Virus record (IMG/VR): IMGVR_UViG_2934077722_000001
Coordinates: 3,484-67,483 of that record
Strand: one strand, 5' to 3'
DNA length: 64,000 nt
From: a virus
Lineage: Duplodnaviria; Caudoviricetes
The position numbers were made by a program, and so were the translations under genes. Under the pieces are notes generated by a model. The model saw nothing but the letters and a program-made list of their open reading frames with translations. It was not told the DNA's origin and ran no database searches. Positions within the stretch are counted from its first letter, which is position 1; every line of letters starts with the position of its first letter. Positions 39,883 to 59,224 of the stretch are shown here, in pieces.

Positions 39883-40149
39883 TCATTTCCGTGTCGCACG
39901 GCTGCTTTCGATGATGTCGGTGTACCGGCGGAGGACGGCGAGAACGGCGTCCTCGTCGTCCCCGGCCACCGCACGCAGCGGACCCGTCGGTGTCAGCGGG
40001 ATCGACTCGCCCGCGTGCAGCTCGACGAGCGCCGCCGCGCGGGCGGAGCCAACCACCGGCCGGTCCATGTCCCCGGTGACTTGCACCTGATAGGCGGAGC
40101 CGTCATCGAACCGGCCGGTGACGGTGTGCGGCATCGTCTTCTCCTTCAT
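39883..40149 (-). CDS. Small protein coupled to the giant gene
   Basis: ATGA overlap with the giant ORF stop; alternative ATG at 40134 after AAGGAG; contains TPTGP. Confidence 0.7.
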   Translation of the reverse strand: MKEKTMPHTVTGRFDDGSAYQVQVTGDMDRPVVGSARAAALVELHAGESIPLTPTGPLRAVAGDDEDAVLAVLRRYTDIIESSRATRK

Positions 40150-46100: not shown

Positions 46101-49100
46101 CCGGCCGCGGCGGTTGCGCTCGTCGTCGCGCTGCTCGTTGTCCGGGGTGTCCTCCGGCTGCTCCTTGTCGTTCTGCTGGTCAGGCTCCGGGGTCTCGTCG
46201 CGGTTGTCCGCTACGTCGGCGTCCGGGAAGTTGGTGGCCGACTGCTCGTCACGGTCGTCGGTAATCTCCTCGTCCGGGTACCGCAGGCGGAGTTCGGCGT
46301 CACGGTTGTAGAACCGCTCCTCGCCGTCGTCAGTGACGATCCGAACGCGCCCTCGGCCGGTGAGCCGCGGCGGCTCAGCGACCTTGTGCGTACGGCCGTC
46401 GGCGTCGGTGTACCGGTCGCCTTCCTCCAGGTCGGCGGGGTTGCGCACCTGGACGGGGCGGAGGCGGCTGGTGTCGCGCCCCTCGTGGTCCGCGAACATG
46501 TCCGGTGTCCCGAACGCATCGTCGGGCTGGTCGAGCGGGTTCTTCGGGTCAGCGACCGCAGGGGCCTGAGTCTCCGGCGCTTCGACGTCGAAGAGGCCGC
46601 CTTCCGGCTCTGCGGGCTCCGGTTTCTTCGGCTCGGGCTTCGGCGTGCGTCCGGCACGGCGGTCCTTCTCCGCCTCCAGCACGGCCATGCGGGTGCGGTC
46701 GGCGCCGGCCAATTCGCCGTCGGCCATCTCCCGTTCCATCAGGGCCACGATTTCGTTGGCGATCTCCTGGTCGGTCATGGCCGATGGCGCCTTGGTGCCT
46801 TCGGGGCGGATGGCGTCGAGCTGTTGGGCGACCTCGTTGCGGTCGAGGGTGACCGTGTCCTCTGAGTCCGTCGGGGTGTCTGCCTGGGGCTCGTCCGGGG
46901 TGTCGTCGGTGTCGCCCTGCTCCGGTGCCGGCCGCTCGGTGTTGTCTTCTTCGGGGGACTCGCTATCGCCGGAGGCAGCGGGCACTGGCGGCACGTCGCG
47001 GCCGCCGTCGTCACCGTCGCCTGCCGCGGTCTCCGGCTTGTCGGCACTGTCGTTGCGGGGGGCGTCCCCGTCCGTGCGGAGGTTGTCGAGGGTCTGGGTG
47101 ACCTCCTCAGCAGAGAGCCGCACACGGTCCTTCTCCGGCTCCTGCTCCTCCGGTATCTCCGGCTTCTCGGAGCGCTCCGGCTCGGGGAACTTGCTGTCGA
47201 ACTCTTCGAGAGTGAGCACCGCAGCGCCGACGGCGGCCTGGAGCGGGATGCGGGCCTCACGCCGCTCCTCGACGATCTGCGTGCGCTGCGTCTTGGTCAG
47301 CTTCTTGTCGAGTTCGGTCTCGTCGATCTCGGGCAGCTTGTCGAGGTCAGCGATCCTGCCGACCACGTCGTCCAGCAGGTTCGCACGGGCCCGCGCGTGC
47401 TCGATCTGCGGTGTGAAGTCCGCGGCTGCCTGCGCCGACTGCAAGAGAGCTATCTGCTCGTTGAGTTCGGGCATCCGCGCGCGATCCGCCTGCTGGAGGG
47501 CGGGGGCCTTCTCCAGGGCGTTGGCGAGCCGGGTGATCAGGCCCGACCCGGCGCCCTTCTTCTTCAGGTCCTCCGGGCCGCGCTCGAAGTCGGAGCGCGC
47601 GAGGTCGGGGAAGCCGACGTGTGCGACGAGCTTGCCGTCCGCGCGCCGCTCGGTGCGCACACCGACGTCGAGTCCGCCGAACTGGCCCAGGACCTTCCAC
47701 GGGCCGATGCCGTCGCGGTCGTGCTCCAGGAGCTGGGTGGTGACCTGCTGGTGCAGGGCCGCCGCGGCGTCGGAACGCTCGGTGTACGACAGGCCGCCGA
47801 GGTTCATGGCGAAGGAGTCGCGGACGTTGCGGATGCGGGGTAGGGCCTTCTCGCGGCGGGCGATGCCGTCGCGGGTCTTCGCGAGTTCCTGCTGAAGGTC
47901 TGCCAGAGCTTCTTGCCTGCGGACTCGCTCGGCGGCCTCGTTGTGCTGGTCGATCTCCAGGTCACGCAGGGTACGGCGGGCCTTCATGAGCTGGCTCATG
48001 TACGGATTGCCGCCGATCTCGGCTTCCATCGTTTCGTAGTCGGGGTAGTCGACGTCGAGTTCGGTGACGGTGTCGCGGGTGTCGCTGTCGGCCATCTCCG
48101 GCCGCTGGATGTCGACCAGGCCCTCGGCCTTGGAGGCGACGAAGCCCGCCTTCCAGCCGTCGAGGCTGCCCTTGGTCGCGAAAATGTCGATCTCAACTTC
48201 CGCGTTCTGGTTGCCGTATCGCAGGATGCGGCCGTTGCGCTGCTCCATCTGCGCGGCGCCCCAGTCGAGGTCGACGTGCGTCAGGCTGACCATGCGGTTC
48301 TGCGCGTTCATGCCCGTGCCGGCGACGCTGCTGGAGCCGATGAGGACGGCTATCTCGCCGTCGCGGGAGCGGCGGAACAGCTCGGCCAGTTCCTCGGGCT
48401 TGCCCGACTTCTTGTGGTCCTGGACGAAGGCGATCTTCTCTGCGGGGATGCCGCCCTCGACCATGAGCCGCTTGAGTTCGGCGTAGGCGTCGAAGCCGCC
48501 GCGGTTGTTGCCGCCCGGCACACCCTCGTTCAGGAAGATCATCTGAAGGGCGCCGGGGGTCGGGTGATCCTCGGTGCTGCCGTAGTACGTCGTGTAGACG
48601 CGGTCTTTGTGCTGGTGGTAGCGCTCGATGTGCTTCGCGGCGACCGCGCGGAGCTTGTTGCCCGCCGGGGCCTTTGCGTCGACGAGCCGCGGGTCCAGCG
48701 CGACGGACGTGCCCTCGCCTGCGACAGCGAGCATGTTGTCCTGCGACCGGTCGACGTCGCCCTGGTGGATCGCGCGACCGCGAGCGACGAGCTTCTTCAG
48801 CCGGGCCGTCTGGTCCTTGGTCGGGTCGACCATGACCAGGTTGGGGCCGCCGTCCTTGACCTTCGGGCGGGGAATGCCCACGTCGTCGGCGCGCTTGGTG
48901 TCGGCGACTAGGCCCCACATCGTCTTCATGGCCCGCCGGTTGTGGAACTCAGCGAACCGCTCCACGATCCGCAGACCACTGCCGTCGGGGGCGTTCTCGA
49001 CGCGCAAGGTCTTGCGGCCGAAGGTGGCGGCCCACAGGTCCGGTGCCCCGGCCTTGTAGGCGTCGAGGACCCACGGGGCGGCCAGTGCGAGCATGGTGAA

Positions 49101-52100
49101 CTGCTCGGTGATCGAGTTGGACAGCGGCGTGCCGGTGGCCAGGGTGACCGTGGCGCGGCCGGCGCGTCGGCGATGCAGGTCGGTGAGCTTCTGGTGCAGG
49201 TCGATGCCGCGGATGGACGCGGGGTCGCCGCCGCCCTCGCGGGAGCGGAAGCCGACGCCCTTGTACCGATGGGCCTCGTCAACGACGGCGTAGTCGAACC
49301 CGAGGTCGTCCCAGTACGTCTGGCCCGGCGTGCGCATCGGCGCGGCGTTCTTGCTGATCTTGTTCTGGACCGTCGCGATGCGCTGCTCGATCTTGGCGAC
49401 GATGAACGGGTGATCCGGGTTTTCCGCGTCCTCGTACTGCCGGTCGAGCTGTTCCCGCAGAGCCTCCAGCTCCCGGAACTCGTACTCCTCCTGCGCCTCG
49501 GGGCTCATCTTGATCGAGCCGAACGCGGGCTCGGTGAAGATGACGAGGTCCGGCTTGTTGGCTCGCAGCCACTCCAGCGTGCTGTCGCGCCGCCCGTCCG
49601 CGAGGTCACCGCTGGTGATCAGGTGGATCTCGGCGTTGGGGTACAGGAACCGGGCCTCGTCGTACCACTGCTGTGCGAGGTGGTCGGGGACGACGGCGTA
49701 CGGCTTCTCGATCTGGCCGGACGCCTTGAGCGCCTGGGTGCCCATGACGAGCGTGGACGTCTTGCCCAGGCCCACTTCGTGGGCGAGGATCACCGACCGC
49801 TCGAACTGCATGCGCGCGGCGCCGGAGAGCTGCCAGGCGTGCGGGGTGCGGTCCGGGGTGAAGCCGTCCAGGGACGGGCTCATGCCGTCGTACGAACGGA
49901 CGACGTGCCCGTTCATGATCTTGTTGTAGGAGTCGGTCAGCCGCGTGAGCCGGTCGGCGTTGGCCGTCGCGTACTTCGCGAACTCCGACCGCATCTGGTC
50001 GGCCTTCTGCCGGACCAGGCGAGACGTTTCTTCATCGACGTCGCGCCGCTTGTCGTCGCGGTAGATCGTGAGCGAGCCGTGGCCGAGGATCGCGCGGGCG
50101 ATCTCGACCGCGTTCTTGCCCCGGGTGCCCTTCTCCTCGTCGGCCGCGACGCCGTGAAGGACGTTGTTGGCCTTGGGGACCTGGCCGGTGTAGAGCATCC
50201 AGCCGTAGCGGTCGTCGTGTGCGACGCGCAGCGTCTTGTCGCCCAGGTACTCGCGCAGGAACCCTTGCAGCAGCTCGGGCGGCGTCCAGTGCGCGCCCAT
50301 CTCCGGGGTGAACTCGCCGATGGTGCGGTCGGCGGGCTGCACCGCTTCGAGCGCGGAGACGTTGACGGCGAACGCCGGGTCCTTTTCGGCAGCCCGGCGA
50401 GCGGCGGCCAGCTTGTCGCGGACGGGGCCGGACAAGTAGGCGCCGGCCAGCTCCAGGCGGCCGGTGGAAGGGTCGGTGAAGACCTCGTTGCCCAGTGCCC
50501 GGAGCGCATCCTGCGGGGCCATGTTCAGCAGGCGGGCGATTTCGCCGAGGTCCACCTGGCCGGTCGCGGCGACGACCGCGGACAGGGCCGTCTTCGGGTC
50601 ATCGGTCCGGTCGAGCGGCTGGCGTCGGGCGGCGGCGCGTTCGGTGAAGACGCGGCTCAGGATGGGTTCCTGCTTGTCGGCGTCCCACCGCTCCAGGGCG
50701 AGGACCGATCCGGCGTCCGGGTCGGAGCGGAAGTAGCCCCACGCGGTCGGCGTGCGCTCCTCCGACCCGTCCGGGCGGGTGCCGGTCTTCATGCTGCGGA
50801 ACTGGCCCGGCTTGGACAGCGGGCCGTACTGCAGGACGTACGCGGTGTGCAGGTCACGGAGCTGGGCGCGCAGCTTCTCGGCGCGCTCGGCCTCGTCGTT
50901 CTTGCGGTCCAGCGCCCGCAGTTCGGCCGCGACGTCGCGCAGCTGCATCAGGGCGCGGAGCTGGTCACCGCGGCCGTCGGACGGCTCGACGGCGACGGGG
51001 TTGCCGCCGTTGACGTGCTGGTAGAGCCTGCCGTCGTCGCCCTCGTAGAGGCGGCCGGTCCAGTCGTTGGCGTGCTTCTCCCGCGCGGTCTGAAGGAACA
51101 CCGGGGGCCGGTTGTCGCCGTCGGGGTGCGGCTCGTAGCCCTTGCCGTCGGCCTTCGCCTTGTCGGCGATGTCCTTCAACGCGTTCCGGAGCTGGTCGGC
51201 GGCCTTGGCCGGGTTGCCTTTCACGGTCAGGCGCGGTCCGTACGGGGACGACTCGGTGGTCAGGTCTCCGAGGACGTGCTCGGGGTGTTGAGTGAAGTAC
51301 GCGTTGACGTGCTCGCGGACGTTCCCGACCTTCCGCTCGGGCGCGTTGAGCCACGATGCGTCGCCCGGCTCGTCGCCATCGGCGCGGCGCCGCAGCACCA
51401 GGACGTCGGTGACGACGCCGGTGCCGGCGTCGTTGAACACGCCGGACGGCAGGCGGACGGCGCCGATGAGGTCGCCGTACTTGGCGATCTGCTTGCGGGC
51501 CTTGTCGCCCTTGGAGTCGAGGGTGTGCCGGGAGGTGATGAGCAGTGTGACGCCGCCCGGCCTTGTCAGCGCGAGTTCCTTGGTGATGAACCCGTTGTGC
51601 AGGGACTCGGCCGGATACCGCTTGTCGCCGAACGGCACCGAGGCGAACGGAACGTTTCCGATGCCCGCGTCAAACGTGCCGGGGCGAGCGTCGGTCTCCG
51701 CGAAGTTTTCGTTCAGGACGTTGGCGTCCGGGTAGATCGCCTTCGCGATCCGCGCGGTTGTCGGGTCCAGCTCGATGCCGGTGAGGCGGGCGCCCTCCGG
51801 TGAGACGCCGAAGAAGGTGCCGCTGCCGGACCCGGCCTCGAGGACGTCTCCGCGCTCGAATCCGAGCGCCTTCAGGCCCTCCCACATCGCCTCGGCGATG
51901 GGCTGCGGCGTGTAGTGCATCGACAGCGTGCCGCGCCGGGCCTGCTGCCACTCCAGCGGCGTCAGCTCGTCGGACAGCATGGTGCGCAGCTCGCGGTACT
52001 CCGCCCAACGGGCGTGGTCCTGCGCGAACTTGCCGTACCGGGCGCCACCCTGCTGGTAGCGCGGCTCCTTCTCGTTCGGCTCCGACGCGAACATGATCGG

Positions 52101-55100
52101 AACCGAGCCCCACCCGGTCCAGCGGGCGAGGGTGACCTTCTCCTTGTCCGTGGCCGGGCGGTTCTCCCGCTCCAACCGCTCCAGGGCTCGGATGGCCTCG
52201 ACGTTCGCGGCGGCACGCTGGATCGGGCCCTTGGTGGCGGCGTCGGCCGGGTTCGGCCGGAAGCGCGGTGCTACATGTCGTACACCGCGTCCTTCAGCGC
52301 CTGCAGATCCCGCATCTCCGGACTGAGCGTCTGCGGCTCCTCGGTCTCCGGCTCCGGCTCCGGCAGCAGGTCGCGCAGCACCATCGCGGTCGCGTCCGCC
52401 CTGATCTGCTTGATCTGACCCGCCCGCTCCTCGTAGCCCGTCGCGGCCGGCACGGTCTCCTCCAATGCCTCCTCGGCCGCCAGAATCGCCGTCTCTATCT
52501 CCCTGCCCTTGTTCAGGAAGAACGTCTCCGGGTCGGTCATCTCCGCCAGCTCCCGCGGCCGGTACTTCATCCAGTGGTCCCTGGCCGTCTGGCTGTAGAT
52601 GCTCACCATCAGCCCCTTCGTCCGTTCCGAGAGCCGCACGCAGGGCTGCCTGCTGCGCCTCGATTTCCTCGCGGGAGATGACCTTGCGGTCGTCGTCCCC
52701 GCCATCCTTGCCTACTGCGGTGCGCTGCGCGTCGATGCCGTGCAGCGCAGCGTTGATGGAGGCCAGCCGGGAGCGGGCCTTCGACCGGTCCGACGAGTCC
52801 AGTTCGCGATCGGAGGCCCGCAGCATCATCTCGCGGGACAGTTCCTCGGTGACGCGGTGGAACTCGGCGAGCAGGCCCTCTGGCACGTCCAGGTTCGCGC
52901 CCTTGCCGATCTTTCCGGTGATCGGGTTGGTGTTGTCCGACCAGCCGTAGCCGTGACCCTTAAACAGGCCGTAGAGGGTCTGGCGCTCCTTGCTCGCCGA
53001 CGAGAAGGAGTCGGCGCGGCGGGAGGATTGGTACAGCTCGAAGAACATCTTCGGCACCCACACGCGGCGCACCGACCCGTACAGGCGCACCGGCTCGGTC
53101 TCCGGGTCGCTGTCGTAGCTGTCGACGATCGCGGCCAGGGCCTCGGTCATGCTCGGGAACGCGCCCAGGTAGCCGCCGTGCCTCTGGCGCTGCGCGTTCC
53201 ACCCGGCCTTGTGGCCACTTCCGTACGGCGAGTCGTGCTCGTGGTACGAGACCTGGCCGTAGTTGTTTCCATCGACCTGGACGGAGATGCCGTAGGAGCT
53301 GGTGAGCGGGTTCTCGCGGGTGTCCGCTCGGCTGACCTTCTGCTCGCGGCCCTCGGCGCCGCGGCGGTTCTGCTCGTCGAAGAGGGCCTTCAGCCGCTCC
53401 TCCAGAGCTTCCCTTTCCCGCCCGCTGGTGAGGTTCCGGTTCTTGTGGAGGTCGCGGAATGCCTTGTTCAGGTCGTCGTCGCTGAGCCCGGCGGGGTCGG
53501 GGCCGTTGCGGTAGACGTCTGCCTTGCGGTTTTGACGCTCCTCGTAGACGGCTTGTCGGCGGGCGGCAAGGATCTCGTTCTGCTCCGGGCCCAGGCGCCG
53601 CAGCCGGACGGGCAGGCGCAGGAACTCCTTCTCCAGGGTGTCGTCGTCGAGGTCCTGGACCGGCGGGCGCTCCTGGATGGCGCGGAGACGGCGAGCCTGC
53701 TGCTCGGTCTCGGCGTCTGCCAGGCGCTCGGTTACCTGGTTCCACAGGTCCCGCTCCGGGGCAAGGTCCTCCTCGCCGTGGATCGTCCCCGAGGGCTTGT
53801 GGGTTCGCTCCCGGGACTCCAGCTCCTTGATGTGCGCGGCCAGGTCTTCATTGCTCAGGTCCTGCGGATTCGCCGCCTGGTTGACGCGTTCGGTGGTACG
53901 GCGGCGACGGTCGGCGTACAGAGCCTGCTCGTCCTCGGTGAGGCGGTCGCCGCGGCGGGAGCCGTACGTGCCGCGGTCGCGCTCGGAGCGGCTGATGGCC
54001 TCGGCAAGGTCGTCGTCGCTCATCGCGGCCGCGCGGTCCTGCGCGCTCGGCTTCGGGGCCTCGGGCTCGTCGTGGTTGGCCTCGTCGTTCTGGGCGATGC
54101 GGCGCCGGTCGAGTTCGGCTTCGACCTTCTGTAGGGCGGCGCGGGCCCGCTGCTTGCGGGCGGGGGTCGTCGCGACCTGGGCGTGGATCTTGAGGTTGTC
54201 GCGGTGCTGGCGCAGGTCCGGCTCGGGCATCGCCCGGAGCTTCTTGGTGTCCTCGTCGAGCTGCGTCGTCTGCGGGGCGGCCGCGTTGTTTCGATCCTCG
54301 TCGGTGACGCGGACGTTGCGGCCCTGCCGGACGAACGCGGCGAGGATGTCGGCGGCCTTGCGGTCGCGGGTCTCCGCTTTCCACTGGGTGCCCGTGATCC
54401 GGGCCTTCTGCACTGGGGACCAGGCCAGCTTCCCGGCAGCGCCGACCGCGCGGTCATCGCGGGCGTCGTTCTTGATGGTGCCGCGTACGGCCAGGACCCG
54501 CCTGCCCTTGTGGGTGGTCCACGCCAGGTGCACGTGATCGGCCTGGTCTGGCTGGGTGGTGGCCAGGTGGTGGCGGGCGATGATCTGGTCAGCGATGTTC
54601 GCGTTGCCGCCGATGGGCACATAGACGCCGTCGACCGTGGCGTGCCGATCGCTGTAGCCACTGACGACGGAGGCGATGCGCGAGCCGTCCGGGCCGTACA
54701 CGGTGACCGGCCCCGGATTCCAGGAGGTCGCCCAGTAGCCGGGCACGCCGTCGACCGGTTCGGCGTCCTCCGGCACGCCTGCCGGCCGACCGTCGGTCTC
54801 GGCCTCCGGCGACTCCTCCGGCTGGGGCGCGGCCTCGGGCTCGGGGGAGGTCTCCGGCTGGTCGTCCGATCCGCTCTGGTCCTGCTCGCCCTCCTTGTGG
54901 TCCGCCCGCGCGGATTCCGGGATGTTGGGTTCGGAGGTCGGCTCCGTAGGGGTGTCCGCCTTCGGGGCCTGGCCCTCTTCGTCGCCGAGGGGGCGGCGGC
55001 GCAGGGTCTCGGCGAGCCGGTCGGTGGCGATGCTGTGCTTGGGCGGGTGCTCCTGGTCCCACAGGGCGCGGGCGGCCGTCCACTCCTGTATGTAGTCGCG

Positions 55101-56477
55101 GCCTTTGGCGGAGCGCCACGTCCGGCGGGTCTCGGCGAACTCGGGCGCGGAGAAGTCGAGAGCGTTGCCGTCCTGGTCTTTGAGGGTGCCGACGATGTGC
55201 TCGGCGAAGCCCTTGGCGTCCGACTGCCGGTCGAACCACCACGGCATTCGCTGTCCGGTGGCCGTGGCGTACAGGTACCAGTCGCCTTCCTCACGGCGGG
55301 CGACGAACTGGCCGTCGCCGACGAGCTTGAGGCGCTGCTCCTTGACGAGGCTGTCCAGGTCGCGGGCACTGCTTCGGTCCTGCTCACTGCCAGAAGCGCG
55401 CAGGGCCCCGGCTCGCTGGGTCCAGTTGTCACGGACCTGCTGAAGCGTGGTGAACCGTCCACGGCTCTGGTCGCGCTGCCGCTTGGGCGCTGGGGCCTGC
55501 GCATCGTCATCGTTCGTACGGGAGGCGTGGAAGTCCCGGACGGCGCGGCGGATCGCCTGCTCGGCGTCCTCGCCCTTGGTGGAGCGCCAGGTCAGGAACC
55601 AGTCGCCGATCTTGGGGTCGGAGAAGTCGATCGCCGTGTTGAACTGGCCCGGCATGATGTGCCCGTTGCGGACGTGCTCGTCGACGTACTCGGCCGCAGC
55701 TTCCGCTTCCTGGCGGGTGGCGAAGTCTCCGACATCGAGGTAGCCACCCGTGCCGGTAGAGGTGAGGTACCAGCGGCCGTTGGCGTCATCGCGACTTGTG
55801 ACGAGTCCGCCGGACGGTGTGATCTGCAAGTCCTCGTCACCCGCGAGACGGCGCAGGGCCGGAGCGTTGGCGCCGGGCTGCTGGGCCAGGTCGAGGAAGT
55901 GCCGGCGCACCGCGGCGGTGTCCTCGTAGCGGGCTCCGGCGCGGGCCTTGCGGTTCGGCAGGGCGTCAGTGTCCACGTCGTGTTGCCCGTCCTCGGGCTC
56001 GTCCTGGTCGTCGCCCTCGGGGCCGTCGCCTTCGTCGTCACCGATGGCGTTGCCCTCGTCATCAGCGTCGTGCGGCTCGTCGGAAGTGTCAGGGTCGCCG
56101 TGATCGTCACGGGACAGACCCAGGCCGCGCCGCTCGTCCTGCTCGCGGCGGGCGTCCTCGGCCTCGACCTTCTTCTGGTTGGAGGTGGGGGCGCTGCCGT
56201 CAGGCCGGGCCACCATGGTGATCCAGCGGGCGCTGGTGCTGTGTCGCCTCCCGGTGTAGGTACCGTCTGCAGCACGGTCCTGCACGAGGACGCGGTCGCG
56301 CGGCAGGGCGCGAACGACGCGCGCGAGCTTCCCAGACCACAGCCTCGCGACACCGCCGGTCTCGATGAACCTGCCCTTCGAGTCCCGAGGGTGCAGGGCA
56401 GGGTTCCACGGCCGTCGTACGGACTTGGCCTCAAGGGCGCGACTCAGGCCGACCGAGGAAGCGGTGCGATTCAGCAT
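40146..56477 (-). CDS. Giant DarB-like polyvalent protein (N6-adenine methyltransferase + SNF2/SF2 helicase + repeats + degenerate zincin)
   Basis: VLEAGSGSG and GNVPF MTase motifs; HEVGLGKT, DEAH, ATGTP, GTGMN, QRNGRILR helicase motifs; likely leaderless ATG at 56477. Confidence 0.9.
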   Translation of the reverse strand: MLNRTASSVGLSRALEAKSVRRPWNPALHPRDSKGRFIETGGVARLWSGKLARVVRALPRDRVLVQDRAADGTYTGRRHSTSARWITMVARPDGSAPTSNQKKVEAEDARREQDERRGLGLSRDDHGDPDTSDEPHDADDEGNAIGDDEGDGPEGDDQDEPEDGQHDVDTDALPNRKARAGARYEDTAAVRRHFLDLAQQPGANAPALRRLAGDEDLQITPSGGLVTSRDDANGRWYLTSTGTGGYLDVGDFATRQEAEAAAEYVDEHVRNGHIMPGQFNTAIDFSDPKIGDWFLTWRSTKGEDAEQAIRRAVRDFHASRTNDDDAQAPAPKRQRDQSRGRFTTLQQVRDNWTQRAGALRASGSEQDRSSARDLDSLVKEQRLKLVGDGQFVARREEGDWYLYATATGQRMPWWFDRQSDAKGFAEHIVGTLKDQDGNALDFSAPEFAETRRTWRSAKGRDYIQEWTAARALWDQEHPPKHSIATDRLAETLRRRPLGDEEGQAPKADTPTEPTSEPNIPESARADHKEGEQDQSGSDDQPETSPEPEAAPQPEESPEAETDGRPAGVPEDAEPVDGVPGYWATSWNPGPVTVYGPDGSRIASVVSGYSDRHATVDGVYVPIGGNANIADQIIARHHLATTQPDQADHVHLAWTTHKGRRVLAVRGTIKNDARDDRAVGAAGKLAWSPVQKARITGTQWKAETRDRKAADILAAFVRQGRNVRVTDEDRNNAAAPQTTQLDEDTKKLRAMPEPDLRQHRDNLKIHAQVATTPARKQRARAALQKVEAELDRRRIAQNDEANHDEPEAPKPSAQDRAAAMSDDDLAEAISRSERDRGTYGSRRGDRLTEDEQALYADRRRRTTERVNQAANPQDLSNEDLAAHIKELESRERTHKPSGTIHGEEDLAPERDLWNQVTERLADAETEQQARRLRAIQERPPVQDLDDDTLEKEFLRLPVRLRRLGPEQNEILAARRQAVYEERQNRKADVYRNGPDPAGLSDDDLNKAFRDLHKNRNLTSGREREALEERLKALFDEQNRRGAEGREQKVSRADTRENPLTSSYGISVQVDGNNYGQVSYHEHDSPYGSGHKAGWNAQRQRHGGYLGAFPSMTEALAAIVDSYDSDPETEPVRLYGSVRRVWVPKMFFELYQSSRRADSFSSASKERQTLYGLFKGHGYGWSDNTNPITGKIGKGANLDVPEGLLAEFHRVTEELSREMMLRASDRELDSSDRSKARSRLASINAALHGIDAQRTAVGKDGGDDDRKVISREEIEAQQAALRAALGTDEGADGEHLQPDGQGPLDEVPAAGAGGDDRPGDVLPEQGQGDRDGDSGGRGGIGGDRAGRDGLRGAGGSDQADQGGRDRDGAARPAAGAGAGDRGAADAQSGDAGSAGAEGRGVRHVAPRFRPNPADAATKGPIQRAAANVEAIRALERLERENRPATDKEKVTLARWTGWGSVPIMFASEPNEKEPRYQQGGARYGKFAQDHARWAEYRELRTMLSDELTPLEWQQARRGTLSMHYTPQPIAEAMWEGLKALGFERGDVLEAGSGSGTFFGVSPEGARLTGIELDPTTARIAKAIYPDANVLNENFAETDARPGTFDAGIGNVPFASVPFGDKRYPAESLHNGFITKELALTRPGGVTLLITSRHTLDSKGDKARKQIAKYGDLIGAVRLPSGVFNDAGTGVVTDVLVLRRRADGDEPGDASWLNAPERKVGNVREHVNAYFTQHPEHVLGDLTTESSPYGPRLTVKGNPAKAADQLRNALKDIADKAKADGKGYEPHPDGDNRPPVFLQTAREKHANDWTGRLYEGDDGRLYQHVNGGNPVAVEPSDGRGDQLRALMQLRDVAAELRALDRKNDEAERAEKLRAQLRDLHTAYVLQYGPLSKPGQFRSMKTGTRPDGSEERTPTAWGYFRSDPDAGSVLALERWDADKQEPILSRVFTERAAARRQPLDRTDDPKTALSAVVAATGQVDLGEIARLLNMAPQDALRALGNEVFTDPSTGRLELAGAYLSGPVRDKLAAARRAAEKDPAFAVNVSALEAVQPADRTIGEFTPEMGAHWTPPELLQGFLREYLGDKTLRVAHDDRYGWMLYTGQVPKANNVLHGVAADEEKGTRGKNAVEIARAILGHGSLTIYRDDKRRDVDEETSRLVRQKADQMRSEFAKYATANADRLTRLTDSYNKIMNGHVVRSYDGMSPSLDGFTPDRTPHAWQLSGAARMQFERSVILAHEVGLGKTSTLVMGTQALKASGQIEKPYAVVPDHLAQQWYDEARFLYPNAEIHLITSGDLADGRRDSTLEWLRANKPDLVIFTEPAFGSIKMSPEAQEEYEFRELEALREQLDRQYEDAENPDHPFIVAKIEQRIATVQNKISKNAAPMRTPGQTYWDDLGFDYAVVDEAHRYKGVGFRSREGGGDPASIRGIDLHQKLTDLHRRRAGRATVTLATGTPLSNSITEQFTMLALAAPWVLDAYKAGAPDLWAATFGRKTLRVENAPDGSGLRIVERFAEFHNRRAMKTMWGLVADTKRADDVGIPRPKVKDGGPNLVMVDPTKDQTARLKKLVARGRAIHQGDVDRSQDNMLAVAGEGTSVALDPRLVDAKAPAGNKLRAVAAKHIERYHQHKDRVYTTYYGSTEDHPTPGALQMIFLNEGVPGGNNRGGFDAYAELKRLMVEGGIPAEKIAFVQDHKKSGKPEELAELFRRSRDGEIAVLIGSSSVAGTGMNAQNRMVSLTHVDLDWGAAQMEQRNGRILRYGNQNAEVEIDIFATKGSLDGWKAGFVASKAEGLVDIQRPEMADSDTRDTVTELDVDYPDYETMEAEIGGNPYMSQLMKARRTLRDLEIDQHNEAAERVRRQEALADLQQELAKTRDGIARREKALPRIRNVRDSFAMNLGGLSYTERSDAAAALHQQVTTQLLEHDRDGIGPWKVLGQFGGLDVGVRTERRADGKLVAHVGFPDLARSDFERGPEDLKKKGAGSGLITRLANALEKAPALQQADRARMPELNEQIALLQSAQAAADFTPQIEHARARANLLDDVVGRIADLDKLPEIDETELDKKLTKTQRTQIVEERREARIPLQAAVGAAVLTLEEFDSKFPEPERSEKPEIPEEQEPEKDRVRLSAEEVTQTLDNLRTDGDAPRNDSADKPETAAGDGDDGGRDVPPVPAASGDSESPEEDNTERPAPEQGDTDDTPDEPQADTPTDSEDTVTLDRNEVAQQLDAIRPEGTKAPSAMTDQEIANEIVALMEREMADGELAGADRTRMAVLEAEKDRRAGRTPKPEPKKPEPAEPEGGLFDVEAPETQAPAVADPKNPLDQPDDAFGTPDMFADHEGRDTSRLRPVQVRNPADLEEGDRYTDADGRTHKVAEPPRLTGRGRVRIVTDDGEERFYNRDAELRLRYPDEEITDDRDEQSATNFPDADVADNRDETPEPDQQNDKEQPEDTPDNEQRDDERNRRGRDTDANAASPDEGPEGADGEPQMPTGPDSGRNEDSADANEPDAEDEENDRDRRRRRRRRRGNRGTGGQGPGGPGLPRLDLPHLPNVPASTGTGDGDGVGHGGGAPDRDWPRTVADLREAWRRGDRLTAEENTPERRAFLTQLTDNPTLTLSSGGGLVTWADDPSDTPGGARRWQFAQARNGGRFGKITLTARDADEARDLADLFEITTDADGQPIDWHQPLTPDTIAQWRDREGRTLPEALRAMRDLFQTDHDSTNDSPETAPPVVTLPEDVTNLTDDDLAAAWGQGLSEDDQMRVAAEMDRRDEADKRVRDAIPTTPAADADEVRRRGEAMDAALGFGTTDVTRRPQTREERLQREFQDLDEARYSAAVDATNGYFFSNTSRRLPPVNERDLFSGGNLSRFSRWRDYASEELIDWFDNNGGRLTYNQFKQKRRADERIERDQHAAEQQSAAATNTPDAPASEPQADTPTPGGTNDEAPQAEAASPYDPAKPRFANLNAVRDHLRNGQLDPPAPGAGMHTSPPSPEELREIANDKNTRLSRGGRLLVYGNDAVRDGDEYNRRFIVAAPGSMTPVLRDHSDGFGTLKDALHAANTLEEEVRDADGQPFPWDAPDAVQRARAFGGPDDETLAETMARALANNPSREGQWKYDRDRADERLAWRQTADDWHRQQEADGYTVLAGPADLQPGDEVSYPLAADPGRSLRGGPHPMGTARGTITGRPQLWNPQAGIQALGSRDFHRYPADITWTGPDEQTTRPHDALLDLGVVRRKPRPGEDTASVDDQHTRPGARPDAGAPDEPDRLDSPAQVRPDPDPEPHSDQASQPRQLAEPEPIGGQPAHWASVDQLQPGDMARIDGTTRRGRAVTRAGYVLEAPERVTVTRRGRTDDMWRTTIGESPDGRTGSRGTVYTPLNTTAARAEAPETDAPGAPVSGAQGDVISGDLPDTIATDTRGRGLFPGSRVTGYGDREGTVTGVTDTTVSVRWADSDTDTGVAPTSLTVDDSADHRPQGWTATGQRVRPGDVVSDENGALLGPVDETNGDRITVTTAEGTVTRDAADLRVVGEVRDDTPETAPITGISEQTADEINKGDIVVLDLDGTPTTVEVLDTNRDGDRVTLDYVDTTTGEFGAIDMDATAVVHKAEGPNGAAPDLGPDDAPAADDDLTVHEPLPALDPVTGPTVDPDLTPADRDAIADNGSSPEDDPDAQQAAARLGADLPVTPDQAAALAAQLRTNADPATTEGRAALRAAAHLDRAASRPAPEELDRPRPSNAAQIGEGDVIAMPDERRGDEVHIYRVIDVEEGPGGVRRLLLEDENRQWRRRIVHAAMPVWQLPEPAPDTNGRNDNPAPAPAPAPRDPNLPIASVRRQIVADHSRTVAVRVIDEAVAGTEPPGDIHALREQIAQRLTPEALQDARNAARQDANAALNAAGITGRDRAAVQQALRRAREKAHERTIRAALRTINDLEPLPGEPHEDLAQRAAGLLRLIPDQVDAPSSSRRRSVPDGDGSADATAHVNDAVAALLRQLEEAGGDPADIDALTRLLTAQLDGTRQATARRIVRRATGTTPDPGQQPGLFARVIALLGRMGRRLIELVKAAAEKIAELWRNGRDRLSRLRAFLRRLVRRVRDWPESRRLARLQAALDLPDVEGESLAARVSQWAGLLPEPGRFGQASRRVSWWRPTTWAQLAAGRLPGRSSETRWVPDRAADGGPGLNALRHMAALRAAGTDVDQDVTRRLADALGDDFGGDPHGTLRHADDYVAATERRLLNLQAARGSSTIQDPDVDVEIAAARMEVAAARREWEELRTRYAAAVPDAVAAALADVRDLGPQGNAGIVFGPDSTPDAERAVRDVQFLIPGDWLAAPDGRRLTAVEGDSGRYEPDARRATVADLGDRGVGTAAHVLAQHLAGHLPDLDAAQRAFWFTRTRTGRPGARTLDRAALGRLLAQQQTQTDTGDSLARSLQAMFTGDWYEDDDLRAFLLGLLATR
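52271..52609 (-). CDS. Nested 112-aa gene in an alternate frame of the giant ORF (TnpV-like helical protein, tentative)
   Basis: GAAGGGG RBS-like sequence, ATG, GC3-biased codons; the giant frame reads as Gly/Asp/Arg shadow sequence over exactly this span. Confidence 0.75.
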   Translation of the reverse strand: MVSIYSQTARDHWMKYRPRELAEMTDPETFFLNKGREIETAILAAEEALEETVPAATGYEERAGQIKQIRADATAMVLRDLLPEPEPETEEPQTLSPEMRDLQALKDAVYDM

Positions 56478-56483
56478 GCGCGG

Positions 56484-56520
56484 ACGATGCACACCGCGGG
56501 TGGTTAGCGTCGCACGCTGC
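56484..56520 (-). promoter_or_regulatory. Late-promoter motif (giant gene, leaderless)
   Basis: GCAGCGTGCGAC-GCTAA...19 nt...CATCGT, 6 nt, ATG. Confidence 0.7.
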
Positions 56521-56546: not shown

Positions 56547-56759
56547 CTACATCGTCTCGGTGAGGATGTGGATGGCGAACCAGGCGGAGAACCCGCACCA
56601 TCCCACGGCGAAGACCGCACGCCCGACCTTGGAGGTACGGGTACGGAACAGGCGCCTGAAGTTCTCGCTCAGGGTGTCGCCCTCGCGTTTGTTGACGAGC
56701 GCGATCGTCTCGAACACGGCGAACAGGCAGGACCAGACGAACCAGATGGCGGGCCACAT
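56547..56759 (-). CDS. Small two-TM membrane protein
   Basis: GAGGAG RBS; MWPAIWFVW...GDTLSE...AWFAIH. Confidence 0.7.
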   Translation of the reverse strand: MWPAIWFVWSCLFAVFETIALVNKREGDTLSENFRRLFRTRTSKVGRAVFAVGWCGFSAWFAIHILTETM

Positions 56760-59224
56760 TAGGACTTCTCCTCGGTGGTGGGGCCGACGCGGTAGCGCAG
56801 TCGGCACCGGCAGTTGATGGTCAGGGCGGCGGGGGCGAACGGGTCGCCCGGGTAGCGCAGGGTGGAACCGTCGACTGCGTATGGGACGCCGACGGGCAGG
56901 GTCGTGCCGTGCAGTTCTCGATGGGCGGGTCGTACGTGGGTGTCGCTGCGCGTGATCCAGGTCCGAAGAACGGAGGGGCCGGCGCTCTCGGCTGCGGCGT
57001 CGGCCGCGCCGTTGACGGTGGCGACAGCGCAGGACTCGGCGAGCAGGGCGATGAACTTCGCGGAGCGGGTCCGGTAGAACCCGCTGACTGTGTCGGTGAG
57101 TTCGTTGAGCGTGGCTTCCCCGACCTGCGCCACATCTATGGCGACGGCGAGGTCTGCGAGCAGCCCGGCGACGGCACGTCCGGCCATGGCCGAGGCGGCG
57201 AGTGCTGCGGCGGCTGCGCCCGAGGGCACGGTCGCCACGCCGGTCAGGCTCTCGCTGAGAGCGGCTGCGGTCTTGGCTGCGGCCTGCTGGAGGATCGAGG
57301 TCAGGGTGTTGGTGATCTCCTCCTCCCATCGCTCTGCACCAACGACGCGCTCCCCGTCGATCGGGGCGTCACCGCGGCGAAGGTCGGTGTCGCCGTCCGG
57401 CTCCCAGTAGCGCGTGCCTTTGCGGGTCTTGGGTGCGTGAAGGCGGGCGTTGATCACCCCTTCCTGCCTCGCGAGGAGTGCGGTCAGCGCGGCCGTGATG
57501 GCGGCTGTGGCCGTGTCGAAGTCCTTCTCGGTGACCGCGAACCCGGTGTGGTGGGGTAGCTCCTTGCGCTCCATATCGGAGCGAGCGGCGTCGACATCGG
57601 CCGCAGCATCTCCGGCGCCTGGCTGTACGACTGAGGCGCGTGCGGACGCGACGTCGTTGGCGGCGTTACCGGGCAAGGTGAGGGGTACGTTGTCGCGTGC
57701 CTGCTCGACGGCGGTCGCGGCGGACTCTCCGGCCGCGCGAGCACCTGATGCGACGCGAGCGGCATCGACGTCATCAGCAGCGGTCCCCAGCTCGTGGGCT
57801 CGGGCTTCGGCTACTGCGTCCGCTGCGGACTCGCCTTCGGAACCGGATGGCGCGATGGCGGGCGGCGGGTCACCTGTTCCCGGCAGCCCCAGCGCGCCTC
57901 CGGCCGCCGGGTCCTGAGCGACACCAAGCGCGGCCGCGTCCTCCTCGCTTGCTGGGACGGGCGCCCTCTGTGGGCTAATCCACAGAGCGCGGGTGTGAGG
58001 GACGTTGAACGGACGGCGTCCCGCGATTTCCCGGTACTCGTCGACCGTGATGAGCCCGGCGTTCCATTCGGCTCGGGCCTCTTCCCTGCGTTGGCGGCGG
58101 GGGAACTCGAGCGCTTCGACTGTGCTCGTGTTGAAGCGGAGCGACCAGCCGTCGTCCAAGTCGAGGTCGAACGCGGAGGCGAGCAGCGCCAGGTGCGGCA
58201 GTTCGGTGTGCTGCCAGAAATTCCACTCTTCCCGGTCGGCGTTCGCGTACGTCCGCTCACTCGCGTTGCCGACGATGCTTTCCGGGACGCCGAACGCGCT
58301 CAGGATCTCGTCCTTGGCGGTCTGCGACAGAGTCTCGTAGTTCATGTCGCGCGGCCGGGTGCTGGTGTCTACGTAGTTGAGGCCGCCAGGCCCGCTGCCG
58401 ACGACGACGGTTTCGCCGGCATGCTGCGCGCCGGGGGCGAGCCGCTGCTGAATCCGGTCGATCTCGCGCTGGTCGAGCCCGTCGACGTCGATGCCGACGA
58501 TCCCCGACGGGCGTGCGTCGTTGTCGATGAAGGCGATGTTGTACGTCCGCGCCTTCACGTCCAGGTCGATGGAGAGGCCCGCGGCTTCCAACGGCGTGAC
58601 GCCGCAGAAGGGATCGGTCGGATGCGGATCTCTCAGCCAGACAACGCGGCTGGGCTCCAGCTCTCGGACCCGGCCGTCGTACGTCGTGAACTCGAAGTGG
58701 CTGACGTAGTCGCCGTGCGGGTCCGGGATCGGTTCGACGCGGTTCGGCGGAAGCAGGTCAAGACGGGTGATCGTGCCCGCGCGGGAGCGGGTGATCTCGA
58801 CGAACGCGCCCTTCTTCGACAGCAGCAGTTGCGCGCTGAGCCTCTTCTTGAAGACGGTGGCCCGCTCCAGCGGGTTCGCCTGCACGTTCAGTACGTGCAA
58901 CAGCGGGTGATCGGTGAGGGTTTCCGCGAACTGCCGCTCGTCCCCGCCGCGACCGATCTCGACTGTGAGGGCGCTGGGGTGCTTGGAGATCGCCTCGATT
59001 GACTTGAACGTCCAGATGCTCCGCTCGTAGCCCTCGGTGATGACCCGGTCGAGGTCCCAGCCTGCGGCACGCCCTTCGGTGCCCCACATGGTCGTGGTGC
59101 CCGCGTAGGTCATGGAGACGTACGTGTTGCCGAGCGACCCGGCGGACTTCCCCTCCAAAGGCGTCGGCGCCACCGTGCGCGGGATGAGGAGGCGGCGGAG
59201 GCCGGGCAGGAACTGGCGCGGCAT
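56759..59224 (-). CDS. Portal protein fused to a MuF (minor head) domain
   Basis: HK97-type portal motifs (HPLL, NDARPSG, ILSAFGVP, TYANA, ITVDEYR); C-terminal WITRSD..VRPAH...YPGDP...INCRC. Confidence 0.9.
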   Translation of the reverse strand: MPRQFLPGLRRLLIPRTVAPTPLEGKSAGSLGNTYVSMTYAGTTTMWGTEGRAAGWDLDRVITEGYERSIWTFKSIEAISKHPSALTVEIGRGGDERQFAETLTDHPLLHVLNVQANPLERATVFKKRLSAQLLLSKKGAFVEITRSRAGTITRLDLLPPNRVEPIPDPHGDYVSHFEFTTYDGRVRELEPSRVVWLRDPHPTDPFCGVTPLEAAGLSIDLDVKARTYNIAFIDNDARPSGIVGIDVDGLDQREIDRIQQRLAPGAQHAGETVVVGSGPGGLNYVDTSTRPRDMNYETLSQTAKDEILSAFGVPESIVGNASERTYANADREEWNFWQHTELPHLALLASAFDLDLDDGWSLRFNTSTVEALEFPRRQRREEARAEWNAGLITVDEYREIAGRRPFNVPHTRALWISPQRAPVPASEEDAAALGVAQDPAAGGALGLPGTGDPPPAIAPSGSEGESAADAVAEARAHELGTAADDVDAARVASGARAAGESAATAVEQARDNVPLTLPGNAANDVASARASVVQPGAGDAAADVDAARSDMERKELPHHTGFAVTEKDFDTATAAITAALTALLARQEGVINARLHAPKTRKGTRYWEPDGDTDLRRGDAPIDGERVVGAERWEEEITNTLTSILQQAAAKTAAALSESLTGVATVPSGAAAAALAASAMAGRAVAGLLADLAVAIDVAQVGEATLNELTDTVSGFYRTRSAKFIALLAESCAVATVNGAADAAAESAGPSVLRTWITRSDTHVRPAHRELHGTTLPVGVPYAVDGSTLRYPGDPFAPAALTINCRCRLRYRVGPTTEEKS

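What the first reader, a model, noticed from the sequence alone, without database searches (positions are those of the whole stretch)
52271..52609. Complete gene overprinted inside the 16-kb giant ORF, just before the methyltransferase domain
An alternate same-strand frame encodes MVSIYSQTARDHWMKYRPRELAEMTDPETFFLNKGREIETAI...RDLQALKDAVYDM (112 aa), with an RBS-like GAAGGGG and normal GC3 codon usage. Over the same interval the giant frame stays open but turns into shadow sequence (GADGEHLQPDGQGPLDEVPAAGAGGDDRPG...). Inference: an ancestral small-gene + MTase-helicase cassette was fused to an upstream head-targeting ORF by read-through, so the small gene survives as a nested gene and doubles as a flexible linker. 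Standard annotation would miss it. It may be a chaperone or inhibitor of the enzyme. The TnpV-like resemblance is from memory and needs a search.
Basis: partly seen in the sequence, partly recalled or inferred. Interest (0 to 1): 0.8.

Follow-up and report, generated by a model that had tools for sequence, protein, structure and literature searches.

The report
Small gene nested inside giant gene
A complete gene for a small helical TnpV-like protein is written one base out of frame inside the floppy linker of a Streptomyces prophage's 5,448-codon DNA-methylase/helicase gene, and selection keeps both readings intact in dozens of related elements, although what the small protein does is still unknown.

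Summary
On the minus strand, 52271-52609 is a 112-codon ORF with a GAAGGGG ribosome-binding site. It lies in the +1 frame of the 5,448-codon ORF 40146-56492. This is the only place in that ORF where the GC3 signal changes frame.

The small protein belongs to a large family of small proteins (349 cluster representatives) that is distantly related to Pfam TnpV. It does not reach Pfam's cut-off, so I do not call it a member.

The nesting is conserved in 28 of 33 plasmid and genome loci and in 15 of 15 IMG/VR loci. Both frames show signs of selection:
- no stop-prone T3 codon in 0 of 896 contexts, against 4.1% in the flanks
- synonymous change about half that of the flanks
- four-fold codons ending in G at 82-84%, against 36-38%
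- an AlphaFold-disordered giant-frame stretch that matches the overlap exactly

Short DarB-size genes across Actinomycetes already start upstream of the small gene, so the nesting predates the phage N-terminal extension.

The function is not tested. A partner role is inferred from near-obligate linkage to the methylase module. There is no expression or proteomic evidence.

This scan has already reported the same nested pair on other DNA (at least 29 genomes). Five literature look-ups found no published description.

The parts
52271..52609 (-). Nested TnpV-like gene: 112 codons plus TAG, in the +1 frame of the giant ORF. The likely start is GTG at 52606, which would give 111 aa.
   Evidence: ORF and translation. 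GC3 0.90-1.00 in this frame. Full-length homologues of 105-115 aa at 55-89% identity. 349 family representatives. AF2 model with pLDDT 86, all helical. Start-codon comparison.
52613..52619 (-). Shine-Dalgarno-like GAAGGGG of the nested gene, lying inside giant-frame codons.
   Evidence: Read. An SD (AAGGGG or GGGAGG type) lies 3-8 nt before the start in the loci printed.
40146..56492 (-). Giant ORF of 5,448 codons with a GTG start: a DarB-like polyvalent methylase-helicase protein.
   Evidence: Apart from the overlap there is a single uninterrupted GC3 frame.
52271..52609 (-). The same bases read in the giant frame (about residues 1295-1407): a G/D/R/A-rich disordered linker between the N-terminal extension and the methylase module.
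   Evidence: Translation. AF2 of the giant-frame segment gives pLDDT 29-34 with no secondary structure at residues 114-235, against 63-90 in the flanks. Stop avoidance and G3 skew.
52610..56492 (-). N-terminal extension of about 1,294 aa with no family match.
   Evidence: No Pfam hit and no PHROG hit. Residues ~556-1311 are homologous to plasmid forms, and the first ~550 aa only to phage-type relatives.
50832..52271 (-). Methylase module (conserved N-terminal domain plus N6-adenine-type MTase), starting 2-5 codons after the nested gene's stop.
   Evidence: phrog_10089 'DarB-like antirestriction', E 2.5e-95, and phrog_11801 'DNA methyltransferase', E 2.7e-62. Pfam gives only Methyltransf_25, E 0.008, below its cut-off. 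Junction alignment.
48213..49805 (-). SNF2/SF2 helicase core of the giant protein.
   Evidence: Pfam SNF2-rel_dom, ResIII and Helicase_C above their cut-offs.
56759..59224 (-). Upstream neighbour: portal protein with a MuF-like C-terminal domain (context only).
   Evidence: Pfam Phage_portal, E 2.4e-46. Phage_Mu_F, E 5.2e-5, is below its cut-off.
36804..38768 (-). Downstream neighbour: prohead serine protease fused to a 2H phosphoesterase (context only).
   Evidence: Pfam Peptidase_S78, E 1.5e-13, and 2_5_RNA_ligase2, E 1.8e-14.

Best explanation
True dual coding. The 339 bases at 52271-52609 (minus strand) encode two polypeptides.

In one frame they encode a free-standing 111-112-aa helical protein of a TnpV-like family. 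It is made by internal initiation at its own SD plus GTG/ATG and ends at its own TAG.

One base out of register, they encode a roughly 113-residue disordered, Gly/Asp/Ala/Arg-rich tether of the giant DarB-like protein. The tether joins the N-terminal extension to the methylase-SNF2 helicase enzyme.

The small gene is the older reading. The enzyme's ORF was extended upstream across it, long before this prophage lineage added its long N-terminal extension.

Shown here: the small protein is under purifying selection; the giant frame is kept open; and the synonymous sites of the small gene are shaped by the giant frame.

Inferred: both products are made from the late head-module transcript. The small protein works with the methylase-helicase, for example as a chaperone, a loading adaptor or a brake. 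The nesting keeps the two co-inherited and co-expressed.
For: 1. Real small gene.
- The GC3 frame switch is unique within the 16.3 kb.
- 10 full-length small homologues and 349 family representatives; the 150 best that were listed are all 75-278 aa.
- The alignment has conserved ends.
- A confident helical model, pLDDT 86.
- pN/pS in the small frame is 0.50 and 0.43. Over the same bases in the giant frame it is 1.16 and 1.61.

2. Conserved nesting.
- The giant frame is open across the small gene in 32 of 33 loci.
- It forms a long ORF (from at least 2.1 kb upstream to the locus end) in 28 of 33.
- The same holds in 15 of 15 IMG/VR loci, some of which may duplicate genome loci.

3. Selection on the giant frame.
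- Synonymous resampling leaves it open only 25-34% of the time.
- T-ending codons before AA/AG/GA codons number 0 of 896 in the small genes, against 436 of 10,526 in the flanks. In harmless contexts T3 is 7.2% against 4.9%.
- pS of the small gene is 0.161, lower than in all 86 flanking windows in clade A. In clade B, 3 of 87 windows are as low.
- Four-fold codons end in G in 207 of 247 cases, against 2,934 of 7,761 in the flanks, for five deep lineages.

4. One protein, not three.
- No start codon is marked at or next to the junction of small gene and methylase module, except in L007 and L034.
- Indels between the small stop and the conserved F-R-P motif are all multiples of three.

5. Disordered linker: pLDDT about 30 over exactly the overlap.

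6. Linkage, in 401 sampled Actinomycetes genomes.
- 15 carry the small gene and 17 carry the methylase module; 15 carry both.
- A 16th module has a divergent nested small gene, and the 17th is a fragment.
- The module follows the small gene directly in 16 of 16 rows.
Against: - There is no evidence of transcription, translation or protein. No RNA run was listed.
- The loci share ancestry, so the Fisher tests and counts overstate independence.
- The G3 skew has no clean control. The only intact non-nested case, L007, still shows 0.46 against 0.32. The broken locus L034 shows 0.75 in a part where the enzyme frame is closed. Part of the skew may therefore be a family trait or a relic.
- pN/pS of the small frame (0.43-0.50) is not low, although pS is depressed by the overlap.
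- Separate internal initiation of the enzyme part cannot be excluded.
- The proposed partnership rests only on gene linkage.
- Fold searches gave no match.
Confidence: 0.85

Rival explanations
1. Three separate genes. The giant ORF would be an artefact of high G+C: the N-terminal protein, the small protein and the methylase-helicase are made separately, and the open giant frame across the small gene is chance.
For: A frame whose first position is a gene's GC-rich third position is often open. 134 of 508 comparable 339-nt stretches of the giant gene are open in that frame. One relative, L007, does have separate genes, with an ATG overlapping the small gene's stop.
Against: There is no stop for the upstream part and no start codon for the enzyme part. 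The frame is open in 32 of 33 loci against 25-34% expected. Stop-prone codons number 0 of 896. Junction indels are always multiples of three. In L007 and L034, the loci where the enzyme frame is closed inside the small gene, a start codon does sit at the junction.
Confidence: 0.06
2. Programmed frameshifting or recoding. The small-gene frame would be entered from, or left into, the giant frame, giving fusion products rather than a free small protein.
For: An SD-like sequence inside a coding region can stimulate frameshifting, as recalled from prfB and dnaX and not searched here. The two frames differ by one base.
Against: No X_XXY_YYZ heptamer in the correct frame was found near the small start or stop in four of five deep lineages; L006 has one, CCCGGGA, 49 nt inside the small gene, and it is not shared. 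That scan covers only the −1 type; the +1 type recalled above (prfB-like) was judged only by reading, where no shift-prone motif is shared between clades. The start codon, SD and stop are conserved, while the surrounding sequence differs between clades. The family exists widely as small stand-alone proteins.
Confidence: 0.04
3. Assembly artefact or decaying gene. Two compensating indels would have put an in-frame domain of the giant protein out of frame in this record.
For: Single-base frameshifts do occur right next to this region in relatives L017 and L040.
Against: The same frame relation is found in 28 of 33 plasmid and genome loci and in 15 of 15 viral loci from different assemblies. No in-frame long form was found (which is weak evidence), and the 150 best family hits are all 278 aa or shorter. 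The small gene has its own conserved start and stop.
Confidence: 0.02
4. The small protein acts on DNA as an Xis-like or regulatory factor of the mobile element, rather than as a partner of the enzyme. The nesting would be only genome compaction.
For: [quoted passage not shown]
Against: The family is only a remote relative of TnpV. No fold match to Xis or to any DNA-binding protein was found. In the sample the family is linked to the methylase module, not to recombinases.
Confidence: 0.15

Closest known systems
Rz1 embedded in Rz (spanin genes of phage lambda); genes B, K and E of phiX174. Recalled, not searched here.
   Same: A complete gene with its own start and stop lies inside another gene on the same strand in a shifted frame. 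It is found in a phage, and both products are needed.
   Different: Here the host gene is a 5,448-codon enzyme and the overlapped part is a disordered tether. The small gene is the older reading. The pair is kept across prophages, plasmids and chromosomal elements of a whole bacterial class. No product has been detected.
comS inside srfAB of Bacillus subtilis. Recalled, not searched here.
   Same: A small gene sits in a shifted frame inside a giant multidomain gene of a bacterium.
   Different: comS has 46 codons and is confined to one lineage. Here the gene has 112 codons, belongs to a large family and is strictly linked to the enzyme module downstream.
TnpV of Tn4451/Tn4453-type transposons (Pfam PF14198)
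   Same: A small helical protein of mobile elements with unknown function. 21 of 48 family members give weak PF14198 hits. The nearest Atlas clusters are labelled 'TnpV protein family'. 1 of 38 profile hits carries PF14198.
   Different: The window's protein gives no PF14198 hit at E<=1. No match exceeded the cut-off in 401 Actinomycetes genomes. This is a sister family, not a member.
DarB of phage P1 and the 'DNA methylase-helicase dyad' of polyvalent proteins (Iyer et al. 2017, PMC5512222; passages read)
   Same: An N-terminal domain plus an adenine MTase plus an SF2/SNF2 helicase in a phage late/head gene block. The PHROG 'DarB-like antirestriction' match has E 2.5e-95.
   Different: That paper contains none of the words TnpV, overlapping, frameshift or 'alternative frame'. 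The protein here is more than twice the size I recall for DarB (about 2,255 aa), with long N- and C-terminal additions.

Membership tests
Pfam TnpV (PF14198) | Match to the family HMM at or above the curated cut-off (27 bits) | tested here: not met
   No hit at E<=1 for the 112-aa or the 144-aa form. No match in the window's own record. 0 of 401 Actinomycetes genomes over the cut-off. 21 of 48 relatives give weak hits, the best at 1.4e-4.
Pfam TnpV (PF14198) | A small (about 100-130 aa) helical protein encoded on mobile elements | tested here: met
   112 aa, five helices, pLDDT 86. Found in a provirus record and in plasmid relatives.
DarB-like polyvalent methylase-helicase (phrog_10089; dyad of PMC5512222) | A conserved N-terminal domain plus an adenine MTase, followed by an SF2/SNF2 helicase in one polypeptide | tested here: met
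   phrog_10089 E 2.5e-95 and phrog_11801 E 2.7e-62. SNF2-rel_dom, ResIII and Helicase_C over their cut-offs. One open frame.
DarB-like polyvalent methylase-helicase (phrog_10089; dyad of PMC5512222) | Packaged in the virion head and protects incoming DNA from restriction | not testable with these tools
   Only the gene order is known: portal-MuF upstream and prohead protease downstream.
Same-strand embedded (dual-coding) gene pair | A complete ORF with its own start signal and stop, inside another gene in a different frame | tested here: met
Same-strand embedded (dual-coding) gene pair | Selection acting on both frames | tested here: met
   Small frame: pN/pS 0.43-0.50 against 1.16-1.61 in the giant frame. 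Giant frame: stop avoidance, 0 of 896; lowered pS; G3 skew. Caveat: the loci are related, and the G3 control is weak.
Same-strand embedded (dual-coding) gene pair | Both products detected | not testable with these tools
   No RNA run was listed, and no proteomic data were available.
Programmed -1 ribosomal frameshift site | A conserved slippery heptamer X_XXY_YYZ at the frame junction | tested here: not met
   None in four of five lineages; one unshared heptamer in L006.

The most novel reading that the evidence does not exclude
The TnpV-like protein would be an obligate partner of DarB-like methylase-helicases. It might be a loading or transfer chaperone, or a brake that keeps the enzyme quiet in the producing cell and is left behind when the giant protein is packaged or transferred.

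Writing it inside the enzyme's own tether would be an ancient device, general among mobile elements, that makes the pair inseparable by recombination and fixes their co-expression. The tether's make-up would be tuned through the small gene's synonymous sites.

If so, many 'giant ORF' annotations across Actinomycetes hide a second protein. According to unchecked earlier notes of this scan, the same holds in Bacillota.
Probability: 0.35. Interest if true: 0.8.

Novelty: new variant of a known kind. Interest (0 to 1): 0.7.

Why it matters
Long, conserved same-strand overlaps are rare in bacteria and are usually doubted. This one is 112 codons long and has a protein family behind it. It shows three independent sequence signatures of selection on the second frame, and it recurs across a bacterial class in prophages, plasmids and chromosomal elements.

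It gives a clean, testable case of dual coding. The small gene's start codons can be removed silently in the giant frame, and the giant frame can be stopped silently in the small frame.

It also points to a missing component of DarB-type antirestriction systems. And it warns that gene callers that keep only the giant ORF can lose a real protein: the four nested plasmid records examined list only the giant CDS at that place.

Tried and rejected
- Pfam, NCBIfam and PHROGs gave nothing for the small protein.
- Foldseek against PDB and against BFVD gave no match at E<=0.001.
- tblastn against the phage collection gave no match.
- The search for longer, in-frame forms found none among 935 candidates, which is weak evidence.
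- A profile of the methylase module against PDB sequences gave only one marginal SAM-MTase hit, E 0.0032.
- For RNA evidence, no RNA holder was listed.
The partner hypothesis is therefore untested.
I used the search for related loci and the genome search instead.
- I first assumed the giant frame would be open 'almost automatically' over a high-GC3 gene. Resampling showed only 25-34%, so I dropped that idea.
- The G3 skew could not be cleanly controlled.
- Literature: searches, and a term search inside PMC5512222, found no description of this nested gene. Only listings and abstracts were seen for those searches. Passages only were read in PMC5512222 and PMC3158075. Supplements are closed and were not seen; the domain tables of PMC5512222 could bear on this.
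- Rz/Rz1, phiX174, comS, prfB/dnaX and the size of P1 DarB are recalled, not searched.
Full report
**What is there**

The window is 64,000 of the 67,483 bases of an IMG/VR provirus record, with 69% G+C. On the minus strand, 40146-56492 is one open frame of 5,448 codons. Inside it, 52271-52609 is a 112-codon ORF in the +1 frame, ending in TAG. GAAGGGG lies at 52613-52619.

An ORF of this length means little in such DNA: 25 ORFs of at least 60 aa overlap 50000-55000. The codon-position signal is clear, though. Giant-frame GC3 is 0.84-1.00 everywhere except about 52700-52290, where it drops to 0.35-0.54 while the +1 frame rises to 0.90-1.00. No other stretch of the 16.3 kb switches frame.

**Context**

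- The gene upstream encodes a portal protein with a weak MuF-like tail. The gene downstream encodes a prohead protease fused to a 2H phosphoesterase.
- The 480 residues that follow the small gene's stop match phrog_10089 'DarB-like antirestriction' (E 2.5e-95) and a PHROG DNA methyltransferase (E 2.7e-62). Pfam sees the methylase only weakly.
- SNF2, ResIII and Helicase_C hits follow further on.
- The 1,294 residues before the small gene match nothing in Pfam or PHROGs.
- This is the 'DNA methylase-helicase dyad' of polyvalent proteins described in PMC5512222 (passages).

**The small gene is real**

- Ten full-length homologues of 105-115 aa at 55-89% identity exist as separately called proteins. 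Their alignment is conserved from the first to the last residues.
- A profile search of 1.84 billion representatives found 349 relatives at E<=0.001. The 150 listed are all 75-278 aa, with the shared domain at or near the N-terminus.
- AlphaFold gives a confident all-helical model, pLDDT 86: helices at 4-16, 18-23, 27-52, 59-81 and 97-111, with an acidic Pro/Glu stretch between the last two.
- Neither PDB nor BFVD holds a similar fold at E<=0.001.

**Relation to TnpV**

- The window's protein gives no Pfam hit at E<=1.
- PF14198 exceeds its cut-off in 0 of 401 Actinomycetes genomes.
- However, 21 of 48 family members give weak PF14198 hits, the best at 1.4e-4.
- The nearest ESM Atlas clusters are labelled 'TnpV protein family'.
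- 1 of 38 profile hits carries PF14198.

I read this as a sister family of TnpV, not a member.

**The nesting is conserved**

I collected 7 plasmid loci, 25 Streptomyces genome loci and 15 IMG/VR loci.

- In 28 of the 33 loci (the window included), the frame one base behind the small gene is open from 2.1-3.9 kb upstream to the end of the locus.
- It is open across the small gene itself in 32 of 33.
- All 15 viral loci show the same, though some may be the same prophages as genome loci.

Exceptions:
- L007 has separate genes, with an ATG overlapping the small gene's TGA.
- L001 and L030 are remnants. They keep the small gene, about 100 nt of the upstream tail and a frameshifted methylase start.
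- L005 is from Ruania, with decayed helicase pieces downstream.
- L017 has a one-base frameshift just after the small stop.

The small gene always has an SD 3-8 nt before a start codon and a TAG stop (TAA once, TGA in L007). In the window's own clade the second codon is GTG or ATG in 23 of 23 loci, and the first is ATG in 15 of 23. GTG at 52606 is therefore the likelier start.

**Both frames are under selection**

- Small frame: pN/pS is 0.50 (14 sequences) and 0.43 (8 sequences). The same bases read in the giant frame give 1.16 and 1.61. Protein conservation therefore follows the small frame.
- Giant frame, stops: recoding the small protein with the giant gene's codon usage leaves that frame open only 25-34% of the time. 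Yet codons ending in T before AA-, AG- or GA-starting codons number 0 of 896 in 28 nested loci. In their flanks they number 436 of 10,526. In harmless contexts T3 is not avoided: 155 of 2,140 against 1,527 of 31,474.
- Giant frame, synonymous change: the small gene's pS of 0.161 is below all 86 flanking 112-codon windows in clade A (minimum 0.212, median 0.368). In clade B it is 0.172, and 3 of 87 windows are as low.
- Giant frame, composition: four-fold codons of the small gene end in G rather than C in 207 of 247 cases in five deep lineages. The flanks show 2,934 of 7,761, and the expected number was 102. G at that site makes the giant codon start with G, giving Gly, Asp, Glu, Ala or Val.

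Caveats: the loci are related. The only intact non-nested relative, L007, still shows 38 of 82 against 319 of 1,006, and the broken locus L034 is uninformative.

AlphaFold on the giant-frame segment gives pLDDT 29-34 and no secondary structure at residues 114-235. That is the overlap (residues 121-233). The flanks score 63-90 and are helical.

**One protein rather than three**

There is no stop before the overlap. No ATG, GTG or TTG is marked at or next to the junction of the small gene and the methylase module, except in L007 and L034, where the enzyme frame is closed inside the small gene. Length differences between the small stop and the conserved F-R-P motif are all multiples of three. No shared slippery heptamer lies at either junction.

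**How old is the nesting?**

In 401 genomes sampled from the class of a Streptomyces relative, 15 carry the small gene. 17 carry the methylase module at E<=1e-20, and 15 carry both. Of the other two, G392 has a divergent nested small gene and G372 holds only a fragment.

- In all 16 rows the module starts directly after the small gene.
- In 13 of 15 distinct loci it is in the frame one base behind the small gene and open across it. The exceptions are L034, which is broken, and L040, which has a one-base deletion.
- These genes are mostly of DarB size, with open frames of 943-2,485 aa.
- In L035-L039 and in the Ruania plasmid locus L005, the open frame starts about 70 nt upstream of the small gene, with its own SD, an ATG and a conserved leader of about 20 aa. 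Between Ruania and the others the leader's Ser codon switches between AGT and TCG, which shows selection at the amino-acid level.

So the enzyme's ORF already ran across the small gene before this prophage lineage gained its long N-terminal extension. Residues ~556-1311 of that extension are shared with plasmid forms that sit beside conjugation or partition genes. Only the first ~550 aa are specific to the phage type.

**Mechanism**

Shown: two conserved readings of one DNA stretch, and a strict link between the small gene and the methylase module.

Inferred: internal initiation yields the free small protein, while ribosomes that started at 56492 read through to make the tethered enzyme. The small protein then acts with the enzyme as a chaperone, loading adaptor or brake.

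I could not test binding or expression. TnpV itself has only a postulated Xis-like role (PMC3158075, passage).

**Novelty**

Embedded same-strand genes are known in phages (Rz1 in Rz, phiX174) and in bacteria (comS in srfAB); these are recalled, not searched. Five literature look-ups found no description of this pair.

Earlier notes of this scan report the same nested pair in at least 29 other genomes, including Bacillota. I did not test the Bacillota claim.

I rate this a new variant of a known kind, well supported by sequence evidence but lacking any experimental evidence.

Noticed in passing
L044 / L049 (G200:C7:149445-150351): Two TnpV-like genes stand in tandem before one methylase module (E 5e-17 and 7e-35 against the family profile).
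   Followed up: no
L001:8775-9672 and L030:9991-10486: These are remnants. The small gene is intact, with only about 100 nt of the giant's upstream tail and a frameshifted, truncated methylase start. L001 lies next to an IS5 transposase. The small gene has outlived the enzyme here.
   Followed up: partly
L017:10336-10430 and L040:1854-1900: A one-base frameshift lies directly after the small gene's stop and splits the giant ORF. This is either a real mutation or an assembly error.
   Followed up: partly
L035-L039 and L005, about 70 nt upstream of the small gene: Short DarB-size genes begin with a conserved leader carrying a Q-L-S-L-x-x-L-W (or Q-x-x-L-F) motif. L047, L048 and L078 carry a second such motif after the small gene. 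Its role is unknown; it may be a transfer or packaging signal.
   Followed up: partly
window 56759-59224 (-) and 36804-38768 (-): The portal protein carries a weak MuF-like C-terminal domain. The prohead protease is fused to a 2H phosphoesterase domain.
   Followed up: no
window 52271-52609 (-): The small gene uses the Arg codon AGG three times. I recall AGG as rare in Streptomyces and did not count it here. This may be forced by the giant frame.
   Followed up: no
L007 (NZ_CP108308.1 204316-234710): The one clean non-nested form. A 162-aa small gene has its TGA overlapping the ATG of a 9,968-aa 'UvrD-helicase domain-containing' giant gene.
   Followed up: partly
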